64,000 nt of DNA, taken from the IMG/VR virus record IMGVR_UViG_3300047310_000412, positions 1 through 64,000 of that record; one strand, 5' to 3'. Both the position numbers and the translations under genes were made by a program. The notes beneath the pieces are model-generated. The model was not told the origin of the DNA. It saw only the letters and a program-made list of their open reading frames with translations, and did not search any database. Shown in pieces: positions 2,667-41,520 of this stretch. Within the stretch, counting starts at the first letter, position 1, and each line of letters starts with the position of its first letter. The DNA is from a virus.

Positions 2667-3365
2667 TCAGTGGCCAAGTTCCTGGCCCCAAACGAGAACA
2701 TGAAGTTGCGGAAGGGCCGTGCAATTCGCTAGCCGGGGCCGCTTGATGACGGCCTCGGCCAGCCAGTGATACCGCTTGATGACCGCGACGGCGGGCAGCG
2801 CGGCACTAATATCGGTGCCGGCCGAGAGATACATTTGCACGTCGGGCAGGAACCGATGAATACGCTCGGCAAAGTCCAGATCGGCATCGTCAAAGCAGAC
2901 GATTTTAAGCACCATGCGCGCGCGCAACCGGGCAAAATACTTTTGCAGGATCGCCGGATCGAGCCGATCGGCCATCCCCGATGACGGCGGCTTGGGCGAC
3001 ACGGTGACGAGATGGCAGTATTCGAGCCATTCCTGCCAGAATGCTCCCTGAGTTTCCACTGCAATCTTGTAGTCGCTCAGCGGCACCACGACGGCGGTCA
3101 AATCCCAATCGACCGGGTCGCCCCCGGTCAGTGTCACCCAGGGGGCCGGCGCGCGCAGACGGTGAACCGCATCCACGATCTGGTCGGCTGTCATCCGGTG
3201 GGCTTTATGGCTCAAAGCAGGATCGACCGCGTGCATACTGTCACACCAAGTGCAGCGGTAGGAGCAGCCAAACGTCCGGATGAAATGCGAGAGCTTGCCG
3301 GCGACCGCGCCTTCGCCCTGGATCGTCGGGCCGAATATCTCGCGCACCATGATATGGTCGGGCAT
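2667..3365 (-). CDS. queE: 7-carboxy-7-deazaguanine synthase (radical SAM)
   Basis: EIFGPTIQGEG, CxxxCxxC (CSYRCTWCDS), TLTGGDP, VETQG, VSPKPPSSG, LPQLH. Confidence 0.93.
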   Translation of the reverse strand: MPDHIMVREIFGPTIQGEGAVAGKLSHFIRTFGCSYRCTWCDSMHAVDPALSHKAHRMTADQIVDAVHRLRAPAPWVTLTGGDPVDWDLTAVVVPLSDYKIAVETQGAFWQEWLEYCHLVTVSPKPPSSGMADRLDPAILQKYFARLRARMVLKIVCFDDADLDFAERIHRFLPDVQMYLSAGTDISAALPAVAVIKRYHWLAEAVIKRPRLANCTALPQLHVLVWGQELGH

Positions 3366-5718: not shown

Positions 5719-5794
5719 TGGGGTGAGCGACGGGGATCGAACCCGCGCATAACCGCTCCACAAGCGGTCGCGTTACCACTTCGCCACGCTCACC
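5719..5794 (-). tRNA. tRNA-His (GUG) with encoded G-1:C73 and CCA
   Basis: GGTGAGCG...CGCTCACC-CCA acceptor; anticodon arm ACCGC-TTGTGGA-GCGGT; T arm GCGGG-TTCGATC-CCCGT. Confidence 0.95.
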
Positions 5795-16542: not shown

Positions 16543-16709
16543 TTTTCGGCCGCTGCTTGCGGATCGTCGTCGTAACCGCGCGGCTTGATATTTTGCAGGA
16601 GACGCAGGGCCTTGAGATGAAGCGACGCCGTCAGCGGGTCGGCCATGTTGGCGGCCTCGGCCCACTGGACGATACGTCCCAGTTCTTCGGCGGTAAGATC
16701 GATATTCAT
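16524..16709 (-). CDS. hypothetical protein, probably leaderless
   Basis: ATG lies 6 nt after GGGGTATA. Confidence 0.6.
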   Translation of the reverse strand: MNIDLTAEELGRIVQWAEAANMADPLTASLHLKALRLLQNIKPRGYDDDPQAAAEKWKAPI

Positions 16710-16724
16710 TTGGATTATACCCCT

Positions 16725-34167: not shown

Positions 34168-34695
34168 ATGGCGGTAAACGGTTTTACACCGGAATGGCAA
34201 GGCGTCTTCGAAAACTGGACCAAGGCGTATTTTAAGGTCCACCACTGGAAAATCCGCTGCGAGATGGATTTCAAGGATGCCGTGCAGGAGGGGGCGCGGA
34301 TTTTCTCTTGGTGCCTGCGCAAGACCACGGCGCAGGGGGGCCGGATCGACAATGAGAAATGGTTCATGCGCTACTACCAGCGTGCGGTGTCCACGTGGTT
34401 GATCGACAAGGCGGCAAAGGCTACCGCCCAACGTGATACTCTCCTGGCTCTGGTCCAACAGCAGCCAGTTAGCACTACCGATCAAAACGGGCCGCTTTTC
34501 ACCGCACTCAAACACGATACGTCCAGCGAATTACAGCACGTGCTGCGCGTCATCACCGGAACACCGAGCGAGTTCTTCCTTGGCATGTTGTTAAGCTCCG
34601 GTCCGGACAATGTCTGGTCGCGGCGGATATGTCGGCTGTGCGGCATTCCGGTCAACGAGAATATCATCGGCGAACTGCGCAAGCTACTAGAGTAG
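34168..34695 (+). CDS. putative phage sigma-factor-like protein (region 2 only)
   Basis: DFKDAVQEGARIF...WFMRYYQRAVSTWLID resembles sigma-70 region 2 (DLxQEG...F..Y.....lD). Confidence 0.5.
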   Translation: MAVNGFTPEWQGVFENWTKAYFKVHHWKIRCEMDFKDAVQEGARIFSWCLRKTTAQGGRIDNEKWFMRYYQRAVSTWLIDKAAKATAQRDTLLALVQQQPVSTTDQNGPLFTALKHDTSSELQHVLRVITGTPSEFFLGMLLSSGPDNVWSRRICRLCGIPVNENIIGELRKLLE

Positions 34696-34701
34696 ATCGA
34701 C

Positions 34702-34730
34702 CTTGCCAGTCGATACTCCAATAATTATAT
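34702..34730 (+). promoter_or_regulatory. RpoD-type promoter
   Basis: CTTGCC-N17-TTATAT. Confidence 0.6.
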
Positions 34731-34755
34731 TAATCCCCCAATGGAAGGAGCAATC

Positions 34756-35328
34756 ATGCCGGAAACGACAGATACTACCGCCGAGACCGAGGCTGAACAC
34801 ACGATCAACAGCGAAATGCTCGCCGCGATCAAACAGTTCAAGCCGAGCTTCCGGGCGCAAGGCGTAAACGAGGAAGACGAAAAGTACATCACGCGCTTCC
34901 TGCAAGCCGTCGCCGACGTGCCGGATGAACTCTATAATGCGCTCTCGCCCGAGGCCCTGGATTATTTCGCCGAGGCCGCGAAAATCTCCAATGCCCAAGG
35001 CACACCGTCACCGCCAGAAGGCTTTGTCTCGAATTACAAGCCAAAGCCCGCCAAGGAGGCCAAGAAGAAGCTGATCACGCGCGAAAGGCCGCAGAAGCCG
35101 GTCAAGACCGTGGGACCGACAATGGGGACGCTGATCCGCCGGGCAATCATCGACAACCGCAATATCTCCGTTCAAGACCTGGAGACCATGCTAGCGGCGA
35201 ACGGCTTTACCGACATCAAGCGCTCGACCGTCTTCTCGTTCCAGCGCGGCTCGCTGGACACGCTGAAGGTAGCCGAGGCGATGGGCCGCTTTACGTGGCC
35301 AGCGGGGCAAGCTGCTGCTGCGGATTAA
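34756..35328 (+). CDS. hypothetical protein
   Basis: AAGGAG RBS. Confidence 0.75.
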   Translation: MPETTDTTAETEAEHTINSEMLAAIKQFKPSFRAQGVNEEDEKYITRFLQAVADVPDELYNALSPEALDYFAEAAKISNAQGTPSPPEGFVSNYKPKPAKEAKKKLITRERPQKPVKTVGPTMGTLIRRAIIDNRNISVQDLETMLAANGFTDIKRSTVFSFQRGSLDTLKVAEAMGRFTWPAGQAAAAD

Positions 35329-35409: not shown

Positions 35410-36369
35410 ATGGCACAGGATCGGGAAAAAAGCATGGATGACGCAGCCCCGCAAATGGTCACGCAAGAGCGCGCCGGGCCGATCGACAAATCGGTGCTGC
35501 TCTTCTCGGGAGGTATGGACAGCCTCTGCTACGCCCGTCTGCTCAAGCCGGATTTGCTGCTCTACATCCCGACCGGCGCGCGCTACGAGGATACCGAAAG
35601 CTGGTGGGTCAGCCAGTTGCTGTTCCAGCACATGCTGCCAGACGCGTGTGAGTTCCTAACACTGGGCGGGGTGCTCGATCTGGGGCGCTACGAGCGCGAC
35701 GATCTGATCGTCCCCAACCGCAACGCCCATCTCTTGATGCTGGCCTCGCATTACGGCGATCGGCTCTATCTCTCATCGGTCGAAGGCGACCGCTCAACCG
35801 ACAAGGACGAGCAGTTCTACGCGCTGATGACCGTGCTGCTCGACCACATGTGGCAAAAGCAGCACTGGACCGATCGCCGCTGCTTCAAGATCGAAGCCCC
35901 GTTCAAGGAGTTCACCAAGCGGCAACTCGTCGCCATGTACTTAGAGAACGGCGGCGATCCGGATGGCTTCCGCGTCAGCTATTCCTGCTATCGCGGCGAG
36001 CGCAAGCACTGCGGCACGTGCAAGCCGTGCTTCCGCAAGCGCGTCGCGCTCGAACTCAACAACATCATGCTCAAGGATTACTGGGAGAAGGATTTCTGGC
36101 ACTGCCGCTGGTACACCGATCTGCTGCCGATGATCCAGACTGGCCAGTATCGCGGGACCGAGGACGCAGATGTCATGGCATTTGCCAACCGTATCCGATG
36201 TCCGAGCCATCCGACAGCGAGCTTGTTGCCCGGCAATATTCGATCCTCCGCGAACTCGATGAGCACAAGCAAAGCAAGGCCGCACTCGAAACCGAAATGC
36301 AGCAGATCGCAACCGAGCTACAACGCCGGCTCGATGCCGAGCGCGAAGCCTACTGGGTCGAAATCATGA
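35410..36369 (+). CDS. queC: 7-cyano-7-deazaguanine synthase
   Basis: PP-loop LFSGGMDS, VPNRN, APF..TK, SYSCY...HCGTCKPC. Confidence 0.9.
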   Translation: MAQDREKSMDDAAPQMVTQERAGPIDKSVLLFSGGMDSLCYARLLKPDLLLYIPTGARYEDTESWWVSQLLFQHMLPDACEFLTLGGVLDLGRYERDDLIVPNRNAHLLMLASHYGDRLYLSSVEGDRSTDKDEQFYALMTVLLDHMWQKQHWTDRRCFKIEAPFKEFTKRQLVAMYLENGGDPDGFRVSYSCYRGERKHCGTCKPCFRKRVALELNNIMLKDYWEKDFWHCRWYTDLLPMIQTGQYRGTEDADVMAFANRIRCPSHPTASLLPGNIRSSANSMSTSKARPHSKPKCSRSQPSYNAGSMPSAKPTGSKS

Positions 36370-36953
36370 CCAGCAACGAAGCCGCCGATCGCTTTGTCCG
36401 AAAATATAATGGCGGAAAATTCGTCCCCTGGACCCGGCAAGCAAATTACAAAAAAGGAGTATATGGCCATATCATCTATTGGCCGCCTGACACCCCCAAT
36501 TGGGTTTGTCACGACGAGCGTCAGCCAATGATAATGCGCGCCTGCTGTGGTGCGATTATCAACCAAACCGGCTCACGGCATTTTCACGATGTCTTGGTTC
36601 GCTATCTACGGCGTCGCCGCTATAACGAAACTGATCCCCACGAGATAAGACAATTTATTAAAGTTTTGCTGGACAGGCTCGTCAATAACTGGGCGGTCAA
36701 GCGAGGACATGCGTGGTTCTCGCAAGCACGGTCGCATCATTTGCACCGGATTGCACTCGAACTCGCTGATCCGGATTATGCATTTTACCGAGGAACACGC
36801 CGCTGGCGTGACGACACCAAAACGGTCGTTGTCGAAAAGATCGTTGAAAAACAGGTCTTTGTTGTACAGCGGCGTAAGCTCAGCCAGCGTAGCGATCGGA
36901 TCATCGCCGACGCCGTCCGAGGACTTGGGTTAATCAAGGAGCAGAAGAAATGA
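36198..36953 (+). CDS. hypothetical protein
   Basis: MSEPSDSELV...; overlaps the queC tail. Confidence 0.6.
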   Translation: MSEPSDSELVARQYSILRELDEHKQSKAALETEMQQIATELQRRLDAEREAYWVEIMTSNEAADRFVRKYNGGKFVPWTRQANYKKGVYGHIIYWPPDTPNWVCHDERQPMIMRACCGAIINQTGSRHFHDVLVRYLRRRRYNETDPHEIRQFIKVLLDRLVNNWAVKRGHAWFSQARSHHLHRIALELADPDYAFYRGTRRWRDDTKTVVVEKIVEKQVFVVQRRKLSQRSDRIIADAVRGLGLIKEQKK

Positions 36954-37447
36954 GCAGGATCGAACTGACGCTGGCCCTTACCGAACTAATCCAGAGCTTG
37001 CCGCGTCGTACTCGGCGCGTGCGTGAAGAACGCTGGCGCAATCTCGTTACCAGCAATCCGCTATTGGCTGAAGCCGCCGCCGACTTTTTCTTCTCGCTCT
37101 ATTATCGGAATGTTCTCGCGACACTGTCAGCAGGCCCGGAAACCGAGCGGCAGCGCCGCTCACGGGCCGCTGTTTTGGTGCAGATCGAAGCCGATTGGGC
37201 GGCAGAAGTCGCTGCTACTCAAGCGGAAATCGTCAATAATCTGCTGGAATTTTTAACGCCGCTGGGCAAGCCGTTAGGCGATTGCACGGGAGCGGAATGC
37301 CTCCACATGGAAGGATTTTTTGGCCGTGTCGGCAGATCGATCCCTGCCAATGGCCGTGTGCGCGAATACCTCAACAACAACGAATTGCGCGACATGATAC
37401 GACAGCAAATGCCGAGCAACCAAAACGAGCAGAGAACCAACGTTTGA
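36950..37447 (+). CDS. hypothetical protein
   Basis: Coupled; TPLGKPLGDCT motif. Confidence 0.65.
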   Translation: MSRIELTLALTELIQSLPRRTRRVREERWRNLVTSNPLLAEAAADFFFSLYYRNVLATLSAGPETERQRRSRAAVLVQIEADWAAEVAATQAEIVNNLLEFLTPLGKPLGDCTGAECLHMEGFFGRVGRSIPANGRVREYLNNNELRDMIRQQMPSNQNEQRTNV

Positions 37448-37457
37448 GGAGGAAGTC

Positions 37458-37817
37458 ATGTTTTGGAAGAAGTTTCGCGAGGAACAGGAACGCCGCCGCC
37501 GCGAAGAGCAGGATCGCCGTCGTCGCGAGGAGCAATACCGCCAGGATGCAGCCGCTCGCCGCAGTCAGGAGGATACGGCCTTGATGACCAATGCCGTGAC
37601 GATTGCCACGCTGGCAGCGCAACAGGATACACCGACGCAGTCCGCCAAGCCGACGCCGGATACGCATACGCCAACCGGCACCACGCACCACCACACCGCG
37701 ACGCACCATGCCGATACCACCACGCATCACGCCGATAGCGGCGTCACGCACCACCACGTCGATACGACGCCTTCAATGCCCGACAGCGGGAGCGGCGGCA
37801 GTTTCACCGGTTGCTAA
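37458..37817 (+). CDS. low-complexity His/Thr-rich protein
   Basis: GAGGAGG RBS; REEQxRRR repeats, THHH repeats. Confidence 0.6.
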   Translation: MFWKKFREEQERRRREEQDRRRREEQYRQDAAARRSQEDTALMTNAVTIATLAAQQDTPTQSAKPTPDTHTPTGTTHHHTATHHADTTTHHADSGVTHHHVDTTPSMPDSGSGGSFTGC

Positions 37818-37830
37818 AGAGGCTACGCGA

Positions 37831-37998
37831 TTGAACCCGAACCAGCGCGCCGCCTTTATCCTGACCGTGCTGGGCTTCCTACCGGTCGCCGTCCACGGTC
37901 CTGGCGTGGTCCATCACAGCATGGCGCATTACATACTGCTGGCGAGCTTCCTCATCGGCATGCTCGCCTTTGGCTGGATGATCAGCATCTGGAAATAA
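37831..37998 (+). CDS. small two-TM membrane protein
   Basis: GAGG RBS with TTG start; two hydrophobic segments. Confidence 0.5.
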   Translation: MNPNQRAAFILTVLGFLPVAVHGPGVVHHSMAHYILLASFLIGMLAFGWMISIWK

Positions 37999-38254
37999 AC
38001 CCGGACCGCCGGCCTGCTACCGCGCCCGGTCTGTGAGCTTAATTAGGCAGGCACTCCCTCACAGCATTGGCGCATGCCGGTGATCCGCGTCGCTCGATGT
38101 CCCTGGTCCCATCGCAGGGCACCTCACAAACGCAAACGGCCGACAAACTAGCGGTCTCAGCGCTGAAGCCGCAGCACTCATCGAGAGCAAGGGTGACCGG
38201 TTCTGGCCATGGGTCGCAGCCGCTCCGGTAGGCGATCCCTCGATTGCGCCAATC
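37996..38254 (-). ncRNA. candidate ~260-nt structured ncRNA
   Basis: GGGTATAG immediately upstream; closing helix ATTGGCGCA/TGCGCCAAT; two loop-loop pairings; terminal hairpin followed by U-run. Confidence 0.55.
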
Positions 38255-38302
38255 ACTAGACTATACCCTGCCAAAATAAATACTCCAAAAGCCGATTACG
38301 GC

Positions 38303-38331
38303 CTTGCAATATGAGGTAGTATTCCCCATAT
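38303..38331 (+). promoter_or_regulatory. RpoD-type promoter
   Basis: CTTGCA-N17-CCATAT. Confidence 0.7.
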
Positions 38332-38439
38332 GTATAGTGCGGCGGATGGCCGTGTGGGAGAAAGGGAAAAGAGGAAAGCCGGAAGATCGCGGAGGCCGCC
38401 TGGAGGCTGGCCTCCGATCCTGTAACCGAGGAGAGGATA

Positions 38440-38748
38440 ATGGCAAAATATCGCATTTACTACATGCGCCCCGAATGGTTCCGCAACGGCATCTGCAACC
38501 AGAAGCCAGTGATCGCCGAACTCGAGAAGACGCACGTCTTTCTGTGCGAGACCGAGGCCCGCGATCTGGACCACGTCTTTTACAACATGCAAGGCGAGAT
38601 TTGGTCGCCCAACGGCGAAGCCCGCGAACTGATCCAGAGCAAGGGCTTGCGGCACACCAGCATGTCGGTAGGCGACGTAATCGAACTCGACGGAAGCTAC
38701 TGGCTGGTATCGAGTTCCGGATTTGAGGACTTGACATATGCAGCTTAA
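38440..38748 (+). CDS. YodL-like domain protein
   Basis: LDHVF...HTSMSVGDVI...GF motif. Confidence 0.6.
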   Translation: MAKYRIYYMRPEWFRNGICNQKPVIAELEKTHVFLCETEARDLDHVFYNMQGEIWSPNGEARELIQSKGLRHTSMSVGDVIELDGSYWLVSSSGFEDLTYAA

Positions 38749-38758
38749 AGCCCTATAT
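38730..38758 (+). promoter_or_regulatory. RpoD-type promoter
   Basis: CTTGAC-N17-CTATAT. Confidence 0.85.
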
Positions 38759-38781
38759 GTAATGAAGAAAGGAGACCGACC

Positions 38782-39952: not shown

Positions 39953-40702
39953 ATGATTAAGTATCTAACGCTTGCCGGGGCCTTGCTAGCCTCGACCGCG
40001 TTGACCCTACCGGCCAACGCGACATTGCAAATCTCTGCCGACATCAACGGCACGAGCTTTACCTGCGCCGACCAAGCCGCTTGCGACACCAACAACGCTG
40101 TCGGGCAGTTGCAGATCGCCAATCAGACGATTGCCGGTGTGCAGTTCCTCGGCTCGGCACAGACGCAGGTGATCGGCCCGTCGAACTCGCTGAACACGTC
40201 GTCGTTTCAGGTGATCAACAACAACACGGGCACGGTCTCGATCCAGCTTGCCGTGAGCGGGACCAGTTTCCTTGGTCCGGTGACGGCGTTCACCGCGAGC
40301 GGTGCCGGGACGTTCCAATCCGGTATCGGCTCCAGCGTCACCGAGACATTCTTTGGTGATGCAACGAACACGCAAGGCGCGGACACCCCGACCGATCTGC
40401 CGGGTTCCTTGCTCGCGACCTTGACGCACGCCGCCGTGGTCGATCCTGACTCGTTCTCGCAGAACTTCTCAGGTGTGTTCGACAGCACCGGTCCCTACTC
40501 CCTGTCGGAGGGGACGACCGGTACGCTGATCGCTGGTGCGTCGCTGGTTGGGCGCACGCAGTCCATCGTTACCACGCAAGCCGTGCCGGAACCGGCGTCG
40601 TTGGCAATCTTCGGCTCCGCGCTGCTCGGTATGGGCGTCGTGGGCCGTCTGCGCCGTCGCAAGAATGGCAAGACCGATCTAAGCGGCACGTCCGCCGCTT
40701 AG
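39953..40702 (+). CDS. PEP-CTERM sorting-domain protein 1 (secreted, Ser/Thr/Gly-rich)
   Basis: Signal peptide ending PANA; C-terminal VPEPASLAIFGSALLGMGVVGRLRRRK. Confidence 0.95.
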   Translation: MIKYLTLAGALLASTALTLPANATLQISADINGTSFTCADQAACDTNNAVGQLQIANQTIAGVQFLGSAQTQVIGPSNSLNTSSFQVINNNTGTVSIQLAVSGTSFLGPVTAFTASGAGTFQSGIGSSVTETFFGDATNTQGADTPTDLPGSLLATLTHAAVVDPDSFSQNFSGVFDSTGPYSLSEGTTGTLIAGASLVGRTQSIVTTQAVPEPASLAIFGSALLGMGVVGRLRRRKNGKTDLSGTSAA

Positions 40703-40761: not shown

Positions 40762-41520
40762 ATGAAGAAATTTACGTTACTGATGGCAGGCGCTGCGGCG
40801 GGGGCCTTACTAGCCTTTGCCCCTGCGACTGCCGACGCGGCGGTACTGCTTTCACTCAGTGACGCGCTCGGCAACTGCGGCGGGGCCTGTCAAGGCCTCA
40901 CCTATACGCTGGAAGAGGAAATTCCAAATCCTCTCCAGCCGCTGACCGCTGAATTTGCCCTGCTGATCACCGGGGAAAATTCAGGCACCGACACGATCGG
41001 CGGACGCACTGGCATCAACGCCATTTCGTTCAACACGGTGTCGAATAACAACCCGGCTTCGGGCGCGTTCGTGGGGACGCTCATCAACGGCGTCACCACG
41101 CTCGGCACGGCTGGGTTCCTCTTCAAGCCGGGCGGGCTGTCGTCATCGGGCTGCGATGGGAACGGTGGTTTCTACTGCTTCGACAACACCGCCATCCCGC
41201 CGATCCCGGCGTCGCCGCTGATCACCGGGCCGGTTGTCCTCGCGTTTGAGGCAACGCTGGACGCCGGTAGTTCATGGACCGACTACACCACGGCACTGAA
41301 GATCGATTGGGTTGGTCCAAATCAGAACAACTACAGTCTGGTGTCGAAGGATATCCCGGTCAACAGCAACGACTGCCCGGACTGCGTGATCAATCCGACC
41401 GGTGTCCCAGTTCCGGAACCCGGCTCGCTCGCTATCTTTGGCGCGGCGCTGCTCGGCTTCGGTGCGGTCGGCTGGTATCGCCGCCGCAAGGACAGCGGCA
41501 TCGACGGCGCTGCTGCATAA
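40762..41520 (+). CDS. PEP-CTERM sorting-domain protein 2
   Basis: Signal peptide ending TADA; C-terminal VPEPGSLAIFGAALLGFGAVGWYRRRK. Confidence 0.95.
   Translation: MKKFTLLMAGAAAGALLAFAPATADAAVLLSLSDALGNCGGACQGLTYTLEEEIPNPLQPLTAEFALLITGENSGTDTIGGRTGINAISFNTVSNNNPASGAFVGTLINGVTTLGTAGFLFKPGGLSSSGCDGNGGFYCFDNTAIPPIPASPLITGPVVLAFEATLDAGSSWTDYTTALKIDWVGPNQNNYSLVSKDIPVNSNDCPDCVINPTGVPVPEPGSLAIFGAALLGFGAVGWYRRRKDSGIDGAAA

What the first reader, a model, noticed from the sequence alone, without database searches (positions are those of the whole stretch)
37996..38268. Stand-alone ~260-nt structured RNA on the strand opposite its neighbours, with two kissing-loop pairings
Seen: a GGGTATAG motif (38262-38268, minus strand), then a 9-bp closing helix (38245-38253 with 38066-38074). 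It encloses stems 38237-38244/38180-38187, AGTGCTG/CAGCGCT and CCCTG/CAGGG. Two further hairpins follow (38058-38064/38031-38037 and 38024-38029/38001-38006) and then a U-run. Loop complementarities: CCCAT/ATGGG (38209-38213 with 38108-38112) and GCCTGC/GCAGGC (38047-38052 with 38012-38017). There is no credible ORF. I do not recognise the family.
Basis: partly seen in the sequence, partly recalled or inferred. Interest (0 to 1): 0.7.

Follow-up and report, generated by a model that had tools for sequence, protein, structure and literature searches.

The report
Orphan antisense RNA unit in phage
A 441-base non-coding gap in an uncultured soil phage carries a good promoter and terminator on the "wrong" strand, so it probably makes a ~255-nt antisense RNA, but nothing shows that this RNA is conserved, expressed or specially folded.

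Summary
The window is an IMG/VR soil or rhizosphere phage. The finding lies in a 441-nt gap (37999-38439) between two plus-strand genes: D, a 55-aa two-TM peptide, and E, 102 aa.

Confirmed:
- No frame in the gap looks coding.
- The described helices exist.
- A hairpin plus U-run closes the unit on the minus strand.

Corrected: GGGTATAG is not part of the RNA. It is the -10 element of a promoter (TTGGAG-N17-TATAGT). Its GGGTATA core recurs upstream of genes, and several copies lie at matching sites in two relatives.

Not supported as a structured RNA family:
- Rfam gives nothing.
- Folding energy is ordinary for the whole RNA (z -0.08) and only mildly low for the 5' domain (z -1.9).
- No homologue turned up in any collection searched, so covariation cannot be tested.
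- No transcript evidence was obtained.

The two loop-loop complementarities are uncommon (about 1% of shuffles). One of them competes with the terminator stem.

The gap sits in a ~2.6-kb accessory island that the one complete close relative lacks.

Best reading (0.4): an orphan promoter-terminator unit making a cis-antisense sRNA against the D-E intercistronic transcript. This is an ordinary kind of thing for phages, and here it is unverified.

The scan noted this stretch once before, on the same genome.

The parts
38283..38288 (-). -35-like hexamer TTGGAG
   Evidence: Read. It lies 17 nt upstream of TATAGT. A 5/6-or-better match to TTGGAA/TTGACA at 16-18 nt occurs at 2.3% of random genome positions. 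A syntenic promoter in G000, G001 and G002 has TTGGAA or TTGGGG at the same place.
38260..38268 (-). GGG + TATAGT: -10 element of the phage's recurring GGGTATA promoter type
   Evidence: GGGTATA occurs 15 times in the genome against about 7.5 expected. This is the only copy that faces against the local genes. The motif is kept at several syntenic sites in G001 and G002.
38066..38253 (-). 5' domain of the predicted transcript: multibranch fold closed by a 9-bp helix stacked on an 8-bp helix. The start at about 38253 is inferred.
   Evidence: MFE -82.3 kcal/mol, z -1.9. P1 base-pair probability is 0.6-1.0 and P2 about 0.75. The start is inferred from promoter geometry and was not measured.
38031..38064 (-). 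Hairpin with a 7-bp stem and a 20-nt A/U-rich loop (holds GCCUGC and UAAUUAA)
37993..38029 (-). Intrinsic-terminator-like hairpin (38001-38029) plus U-run. The U-run overlaps the stop codon of gene D on the other strand.
   Evidence: Fold energy -15.9 kcal/mol. There is no U-run on the + strand side, so it faces the minus strand only. The only population variant in the gap, 38011 G>A, turns a G-C pair of this stem into G-U. The tool's terminator scan missed it because its loop rule is 3-8 nt.
37831..37998 (+). Gene D: 55-aa peptide with two hydrophobic segments, convergent with the RNA
   Evidence: Positive coding score. It has an RBS and a TTG start. Three protein clusters at 73-98% identity exist. 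A contig of the RNA library holds 37840-37997 at 100% identity in different flanks.
38440..38748 (+). Gene E: 102-aa protein of unknown function, divergent from the RNA promoter
   Evidence: Relatives in 8 other phage records, none with the gap sequence. The model has pLDDT 84 and no PDB fold match.
36198..38780 (.). Accessory island (genes A-E plus the gap), absent from the one complete close relative
   Evidence: G001 has a single 96-aa gene between the QueC-like gene and the NT5C gene. Contig break points and identity steps lie near 36590 and 38744.

Best explanation
The gap holds an orphan minus-strand transcription unit. It consists of a sigma-70-like promoter of the phage's own GGGTATA type, a non-coding transcript of about 255-260 nt, and an intrinsic terminator that ends at the stop codon of gene D.

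The plus strand has no terminator between genes D and E and no convincing promoter for E. Plus-strand transcripts therefore probably read through the gap, and the minus-strand RNA would be perfectly complementary to that intercistronic stretch.

The most likely action is that of a cis-encoded antisense RNA. It would pair with the read-through mRNA, giving a duplex that RNase III-type enzymes can cut, and/or cause convergent transcriptional interference. Either way it would tune or uncouple expression of gene E and the genes downstream from the genes upstream.

Shown: the promoter and terminator signals, the non-coding nature of the gap, the strand, and the island context.
Inferred: transcription itself, the transcript ends, read-through of the plus strand, and the regulatory effect.
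For: - Promoter: TTGGAG-N17-TATAGT preceded by GGG.
- The GGGTATA core is twice as frequent as expected, and this copy is the only one facing against the local genes.
- GGGTATA is kept at several syntenic sites in G001 and G002 despite 65-85% protein identity.
- A -35 match this good has a 2.3% background.
- The terminator hairpin (-15.9 kcal/mol) with a U-run faces only the minus strand.
- The single population SNP in it is pair-preserving.
- All frames of the gap are non-coding by codon score. A protein search with the longest ORF found nothing, not even a called gene in this phage's own contigs.
- No part of the RNA matches or complements another site of the phage beyond chance, which favours a cis over a trans role within the phage.
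- Antisense RNAs with defined starts are common in lytic phages: 20 in five Pseudomonas phages (PMC10914365).
Against: - There is no expression data for the gap.
- No homologue exists to show that the unit is under selection.
- The RNA covers neither ribosome-binding site, so any effect must be indirect.
- Plus-strand read-through is inferred only from the absence of a recognisable terminator.
- The promoter fails the tool's stricter sigma-70 consensus scan, because its -35 matches TTGACA at only 3 of 6.
- The host is unknown.
Confidence: 0.4

Rival explanations
1. There is no functional RNA. The gap is a mosaic-junction spacer inside a recently acquired island. The promoter-like and terminator-like signals and the helices are chance or relics, perhaps of the donor genome.
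For: - Folding energy is ordinary (z -0.08 for the whole RNA).
- A 9-bp helix occurs in 14% of shuffles.
- No homologue was found in any collection.
- The island is absent from the complete close relative G001.
- A mosaic break lies exactly at 37997/37998.
Against: - The joint occurrence of GGGTATA (about 4% chance in a 441-nt gap), a fitting -35 (2.3%) and a correctly oriented terminator 255 nt downstream over ORF-free DNA is unlikely by chance.
- Phage genomes rarely keep 441 nt of useless DNA.
- The gap is essentially invariant in the four soil runs laid, while a backbone stretch differs by about 10% in one of them.
Confidence: 0.3
2. It is a trans-acting sRNA, possibly Hfq-dependent, made by the phage to regulate host mRNAs.
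For: - The anatomy fits: its own promoter, a terminator with a U-tail, and an A/U-rich single-stranded stretch (UAAUUAA in a 20-nt loop) just upstream of the terminator.
- It has a moron-like autonomous layout inside an accessory island.
- Phage-encoded sRNAs acting on host targets are known (review PMC12197685 and preprint 10.1101/2024.10.31.621285, listed; neither was read in depth).
Against: - The host is unknown, so no target can be sought.
- At 255 nt it is long for this class.
- No homologues were found.
Confidence: 0.15
3. This is the first reader's reading: a new family of structured RNA whose fold is locked by two loop-loop (kissing) contacts, with a structural, catalytic or multimerising role.
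For: - Two loop pairs of 5 nt or more occur in only 1% of shuffles and 0.7% of genome windows.
- The 5' domain has z -1.9 and a high-probability closing helix.
- There is no Rfam match, so it would be new.
Against: - The whole-RNA z is about 0 and ensemble diversity is ordinary.
- The second 'kissing' pair overlaps the terminator stem.
- One claimed stem is not in the MFE structure.
- No homologues were found, so there is no covariation.
- Known large structured phage RNAs (GOLLD, ROOL, pRNA) are conserved across many genomes, whereas this one is confined to one island.
Confidence: 0.1
4. It is a type I toxin-antitoxin-like pair. Gene D (a small hydrophobic peptide) is the toxin, and the convergent RNA is its antitoxin, pairing with the 3' end of the D mRNA as RatA does with txpA or RNA II with fst.
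For: - D is 55 aa with two hydrophobic segments.
- The RNA is convergent and ends at D's stop codon.
Against: - D is the last gene of a four-gene run with a normal RBS. It is not a monocistronic unit with a long structured leader.
- The RNA does not overlap the D coding sequence.
- A contig holds D at 100% identity with unrelated sequence starting right after its stop codon, so D and the RNA are not inherited together.
Confidence: 0.05

Closest known systems
Cis-antisense RNAs of phages (lambda OOP, P22 sar; the antisense RNA species mapped in Pseudomonas phages LUZ19, LUZ24, YuA, PAK_P3 and phiKZ, PMC10914365)
   Same: It has its own promoter on the strand opposite the surrounding genes and a defined terminator. 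It is non-coding and complementary to a neighbouring mRNA.
   Different: OOP and sar are about 70-80 nt (from my own knowledge) and overlap coding or RBS regions. This one would be about 255 nt and covers only an intercistronic stretch. It is not shown to be expressed and shares no sequence with any of them.
Type I antitoxin RNAs that pair at the toxin's 3' end (RatA/txpA, RNA II/fst; PMC2887945)
   Same: An sRNA convergent on a gene for a hydrophobic peptide of under 60 aa, within a phage or mobile context.
   Different: The peptide gene sits in an operon. There is no overlap with its coding sequence. The peptide gene occurs elsewhere without this RNA.
Moron-type accessory units of phages (promoter-gene-terminator cassettes)
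   Same: It is an autonomous promoter-to-terminator cassette inside a strain-specific island, oriented against the flanking operon.
   Different: The cargo is non-coding. The phage shows no sign of lysogeny in the parts examined.
phi29 pRNA and other RNAs with functional loop-loop pairing
   Same: Only that complementary hairpin loops are present.
   Different: No Rfam match to any family, pRNA included. The genome type and position are different. Here the pairing would be intramolecular and is unproven.

Membership tests
Any Rfam 15 family | Covariance-model score at or above the gathering threshold | tested here: not met
   The whole window at gathering threshold gives only a tRNA at 5722-5793. 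The region 37850-38450 at E<=10 gives two chance rows: NEAT1_3 at 15 bits and the MS2 hairpin at 12 bits.
Cis-antisense phage sRNA | Promoter on the strand opposite the surrounding genes | tested here: met
   TTGGAG-N17-TATAGT with the phage's GGGTATA core. This is sequence evidence only.
Cis-antisense phage sRNA | Defined 3' end (terminator) and no coding capacity | tested here: met
   Hairpin of -15.9 kcal/mol plus a U-run. Codon scores are negative in all frames.
Cis-antisense phage sRNA | The RNA is actually transcribed and overlaps a sense transcript | not testable with these tools
   Only assembled contigs could be laid, and none from an RNA library lies on the gap. Sense read-through is inferred from the lack of a plus-strand terminator.
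Type I toxin-antitoxin | Small hydrophobic toxin ORF next to the RNA | tested here: met
   Gene D is 55 aa with two hydrophobic segments. Its toxicity was not tested.
Type I toxin-antitoxin | The antisense RNA overlaps the toxin mRNA | tested here: inconclusive
   The RNA ends at D's stop codon. It overlaps only if the D mRNA has a 3' UTR running into the gap.
Type I toxin-antitoxin | Toxin and RNA are inherited as a pair | tested here: not met
   One contig holds D (37840-37997) at 100% identity with unlike sequence from 37998 on.
Conserved structured ncRNA (new family) | Homologues with compensatory base changes | tested here: not met
   No homologue was found in 10 related virus records, INPHARED, IMG/VR, JGI metagenome contigs or GTDB genome contigs. 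The collection scans were exact-word searches, so diverged copies could have been missed.
Conserved structured ncRNA (new family) | Fold more stable or better defined than chance | tested here: inconclusive
   Whole RNA z -0.08. The 5' domain has z -1.9 (4% of shuffles fold as well). Ensemble diversity is at the 21st percentile. Loop-loop complementarity has p of about 0.01.

The most novel reading that the evidence does not exclude
The ~255-nt transcript is the founding member of a new structured phage RNA. Its 5' multibranch domain would be locked by a CCCAU/AUGGG loop-loop contact. It would be carried as a mobile promoter-to-terminator cassette that moves between soil phages.
Probability: 0.1. 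Interest if true: 0.6.

Novelty: new member of a known kind. Interest (0 to 1): 0.3.

Why it matters
If the RNA is real, it would be one more phage-encoded antisense RNA. Two things would set it apart. It comes from an uncultured soil phage lineage far from any cultured phage (PolA is at most 31% identical). It also appears to travel inside a small accessory island.

That would illustrate that non-coding "morons" exist and that phage-specific promoter motifs can reveal them. It would not open a long-standing question. Without a host, a transcript or homologues, its value is that of a lead.

Tried and rejected
- **Rfam.** Scans at gathering and at permissive thresholds gave nothing.
- **DNA similarity.**
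  - INPHARED in distant mode: none.
  - nhmmer on eight loci with gene E relatives: none.
  - Whole-record searches of ten related virus records: only chance words.
- **Exact words from the RNA.** Three in IMG/VR gave 0. One in the metagenome contigs gave two contigs that share only a chance 21-mer. One in the genome contigs gave 0. Records very near the window may have been withheld by these tools.
- **Pseudo-ORF trick.** A protein search with the 71-aa ORF found nothing.
- **Neighbouring genes as anchors.**
  - Genes A and B have no relatives in IMG/VR.
  - An alignment of gene D found no locus in the viral, metagenome or genome collections.
  - A gene D relative (P0003) gave no match in INPHARED.
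  - Cluster look-up gave no accessions.
- **Sequencing runs.**
  - Only contigs were available.
  - The one RNA library (X24) has no contig on the gap. It has one on gene D, from a different genome context. This says nothing about expression of the gap.
  - The three DNA runs laid were identical across the parts of the gap they cover, apart from one SNP, so there is no microdiversity for covariation.
- **Trans-target search.** RNAduplex over the genome gave inflated, uninformative energies and was dropped. Longest exact complements to the start regions of nearby genes are at chance level.
- **CsrA-sponge idea.** My own count on the sequence gives 6 GGA motifs against about 5 expected, so I rejected it.
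- **Coding and leader ideas.** A leaderless or small-protein reading is rejected by the codon score. A riboswitch or leader reading is rejected because no minus-strand gene lies downstream.
- **Gene E as an RNA-binding partner.** The model is confident but has no PDB fold match and no Pfam, PHROG or PDB sequence match.

Full report
**Setting.** The window is the first 64 kb of an 83,952-bp IMG/VR virus record, estimated 77% complete. The phage encodes PolA, ribonucleotide reductase, an SbcC-like nuclease, an amidoligase, a QueC-like enzyme and tail fibres. Its PolA is at most 31% identical to that of any cultured phage. Near-identical DNA occurs in 23 soil and rhizosphere DNA runs.

**The finding's location.** The finding lies in a 441-nt gap, 37999-38439, between two plus-strand genes.
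- Gene D (37831-37998) has a TTG start behind an AAGAGG ribosome-binding site. It is 55 aa long with two hydrophobic segments.
- Gene E (38440-38748) is 102 aa.
- Both have positive codon-usage scores. Every frame of the gap scores negative.
- A protein search with the gap's longest ORF found nothing.

So 'no credible ORF' and 'opposite to its neighbours' both hold.

**What the sequence shows on the minus strand.**
It is GGG plus the -10 hexamer TATAGT (38260-38265), and TTGGAG (38283-38288) sits 17 nt upstream.
- GGGTATA occurs 15 times in the genome against about 7.5 expected. Most copies sit just upstream of genes, and this copy is the only one that faces against the local genes.
- In the two relatives found through PolA, the motif is kept at several syntenic sites. 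These relatives are G001 (114 kb, complete, direct terminal repeats) and G002. Their shared proteins are 65-85% identical to this phage's.
- One syntenic site also keeps a TTGGAA or TTGGGG hexamer at the -35 position (G000 10024, G001 6593, G002 2931).
- A -35 match as good as the RNA's occurs at 2.3% of random positions.
- About 255 nt downstream lies a GC-rich hairpin, 38001-38029 (-15.9 kcal/mol), followed by GUUUAUUU.
- The plus-strand side of that hairpin has no U-run, so it is a one-way, minus-strand terminator.
- The tool's generic scans missed both signals. The -35 matches TTGACA at only 3 of 6, and the hairpin's loop exceeds the 8-nt rule.
- The predicted transcript runs from about 38253 to about 37995.

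**The claimed structure.**
- Present: the 9-bp closing helix, the 8-bp helix stacked on it, CCCTG/CAGGG, the 7-bp hairpin 38058-38064/38031-38037, and the terminator hairpin. Most of these are in the MFE and centroid folds. Base-pair probabilities are 0.6-1.0 for P1 and about 0.75 for P2.
- Not in the MFE: the stem AGTGCTG/CAGCGCT.
- CCCAU and AUGGG do lie in two hairpin loops of the 5' domain.
- GCCUGC lies in a 20-nt loop, but its partner GCAGGC is partly inside the terminator stem. That pairing is therefore an alternative fold rather than an extra contact.

**Structure against chance.**

| Measure | Result |
|---|---|
| Whole-RNA energy vs dinucleotide shuffles | z = -0.08 (0.01 in the tool's own test) |
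| 5' domain energy vs shuffles | z = -1.9; 4% of shuffles fold as well |
| 5' domain energy vs genome windows, corrected for GC | z = -1.3 |
| Ensemble diversity | 21st percentile |
| Perfect 9-bp long-range helix | 14% of shuffles |
| Two loop pairs with 5 or more complementary bases | 1% of shuffles; 0.7% of 1,288 genome windows |

The last figure is the only uncommon feature. About nine such windows are expected in this genome by chance alone.

**Known families.** Rfam 15 gives nothing at the gathering threshold and only two chance rows at E<=10.

**Conservation.** I found no homologue.
- The gap sequence is absent from G001 and G002, from eight other phage records that encode gene E relatives, and from INPHARED.
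- Exact words from three parts of the RNA gave nothing in IMG/VR. In the genome contigs, and in the metagenome contigs, they gave nothing beyond two chance 21-mers.
- Synteny explains this. In G001 the QueC-like gene is followed by one 96-aa gene and then the NT5C gene. In this phage about 2.6 kb (36198-38780) stands there instead, holding genes A-E and the gap.
- Genes A and B have no relatives in IMG/VR.

**What the laid contigs add.**
- One strain is about 10% diverged at 36385-36585 but nearly identical from 36595 on.
- Another contig breaks at 38744.
- A contig from the one RNA library carries 37840-37997 (gene D) at 100% identity, with unrelated sequence on both sides. The break lies right after D's stop codon.
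- Together these mark the island as mosaic, and show that gene D occurs without this gap.
- Across the parts of the gap that the three DNA runs cover, there is one variant, 38011 G>A. It changes a G-C pair of the terminator stem to G-U.
- With no diverged copies, covariation cannot be tested.

**Expression.** Only assembled contigs were available, and none from the RNA library lies on the gap. That is not evidence either way.

**Mechanism.**
- The signals argue for a real minus-strand unit. A lineage-conserved promoter core with a fitting -35 hexamer lies over ORF-free DNA, and a correctly oriented terminator lies 255 nt downstream.
- The plus strand shows no terminator after gene D and no convincing promoter for gene E. 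A TATAGT at 38333-38338 lacks both the GGG and a -35 hexamer at usable spacing. Gene E is therefore probably expressed by read-through, and the minus-strand RNA would be fully complementary to the D-E intercistronic RNA.
- It covers neither ribosome-binding site. The likeliest action is therefore duplex formation followed by processing, or convergent transcriptional interference.
- I found no complementarity beyond chance to the rest of the phage genome or to the start regions of nearby genes.
- A type I toxin-antitoxin reading (D plus RNA) is attractive on anatomy (PMC2887945). It is weakened because D sits in an operon, because the RNA does not overlap its coding sequence, and because D occurs elsewhere without the RNA.
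- A host-directed trans-acting sRNA cannot be tested without a host.
- The structured-RNA reading rests on one 1% statistic.

**Comparison and novelty.**
- Antisense RNAs with their own promoters are common in lytic phages: 20 were mapped in five Pseudomonas phages (PMC10914365).
- If real, this would be a new member of that kind. It would be notable only for its length, its island context and the uncultured lineage.
- It matches no Rfam family.

**Limits.**
- The collection scans are exact-word searches and may withhold records very near the window.
- The one RNA-duplex scan I ran was uninformative.

**Verdict.** The promoter motif was misread as part of the RNA, and the structural claims are statistically weak. 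The interpretation as a stand-alone non-coding unit is reasonable. The claim of a kissing-loop structured RNA family is unsupported. Interest: 0.3.

Noticed in passing
window 4076, 5664, 10024, 16722, 18531, 21460 (-); 26890, 27495, 35392, 49585 (+): (G)GGGTATA(A/G/T) recurs, mostly just upstream of genes, and faces the way the genes run. Several copies follow terminators, and several are kept at syntenic sites in two relatives. Most have no -35 hexamer. This looks like a lineage-specific promoter class, perhaps needing a phage factor.
   Followed up: partly
window 16706-16722 (-): The -10 TATAAT of one GGGGTATA site ends only 6 nt before the ATG of the next gene. This may be a leaderless mRNA.
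   Followed up: no
window 36198-38780: A strain-specific 2.6-kb island (genes A-E plus the gap) replaces a single 96-aa gene of relative G001 (G001 34545-34850). The insertion leaves the QueC-like ORF with a ~57-aa arginine-rich tail (36198-36369) that overlaps gene A.
   Followed up: partly
window 37840-37997: Gene D (a 55-aa two-TM peptide) is present at 100% nucleotide identity in a soil metatranscriptome contig. That contig has different flanks and a different start (ATG, 'MTQ' instead of 'MNP'). This marks a sharp mosaic module boundary at both ends of a 158-nt block.
   Followed up: partly
window 38440-38748; L002-L009 at about 3001-3320: Gene E belongs to an unnamed family of about 100 aa found in phages of 40-71% GC. 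The family has an invariant core (Q.E.WSPNGEA...I......HTSMS.GD). The model has pLDDT 84. There is no Pfam, PHROG or PDB sequence match and no PDB fold match.
   Followed up: partly
window 37458-37817: Gene C is low-complexity. Its N-terminus is a charged Arg/Glu-rich helix, and the rest is a Thr/His-rich stretch (THHH repeats) ending in Gly-Cys. It may bind metal.
   Followed up: no
window 38390-38416 (+): A perfect 8-bp GC hairpin lies about 10 nt upstream of gene E's ribosome-binding site. The 100-nt leader has z -1.5.
   Followed up: no
window 39953-40702 and 40762-41520: Two adjacent phage genes end in PEP-CTERM sorting motifs. This hints at a Gram-negative host with an exosortase.
   Followed up: no
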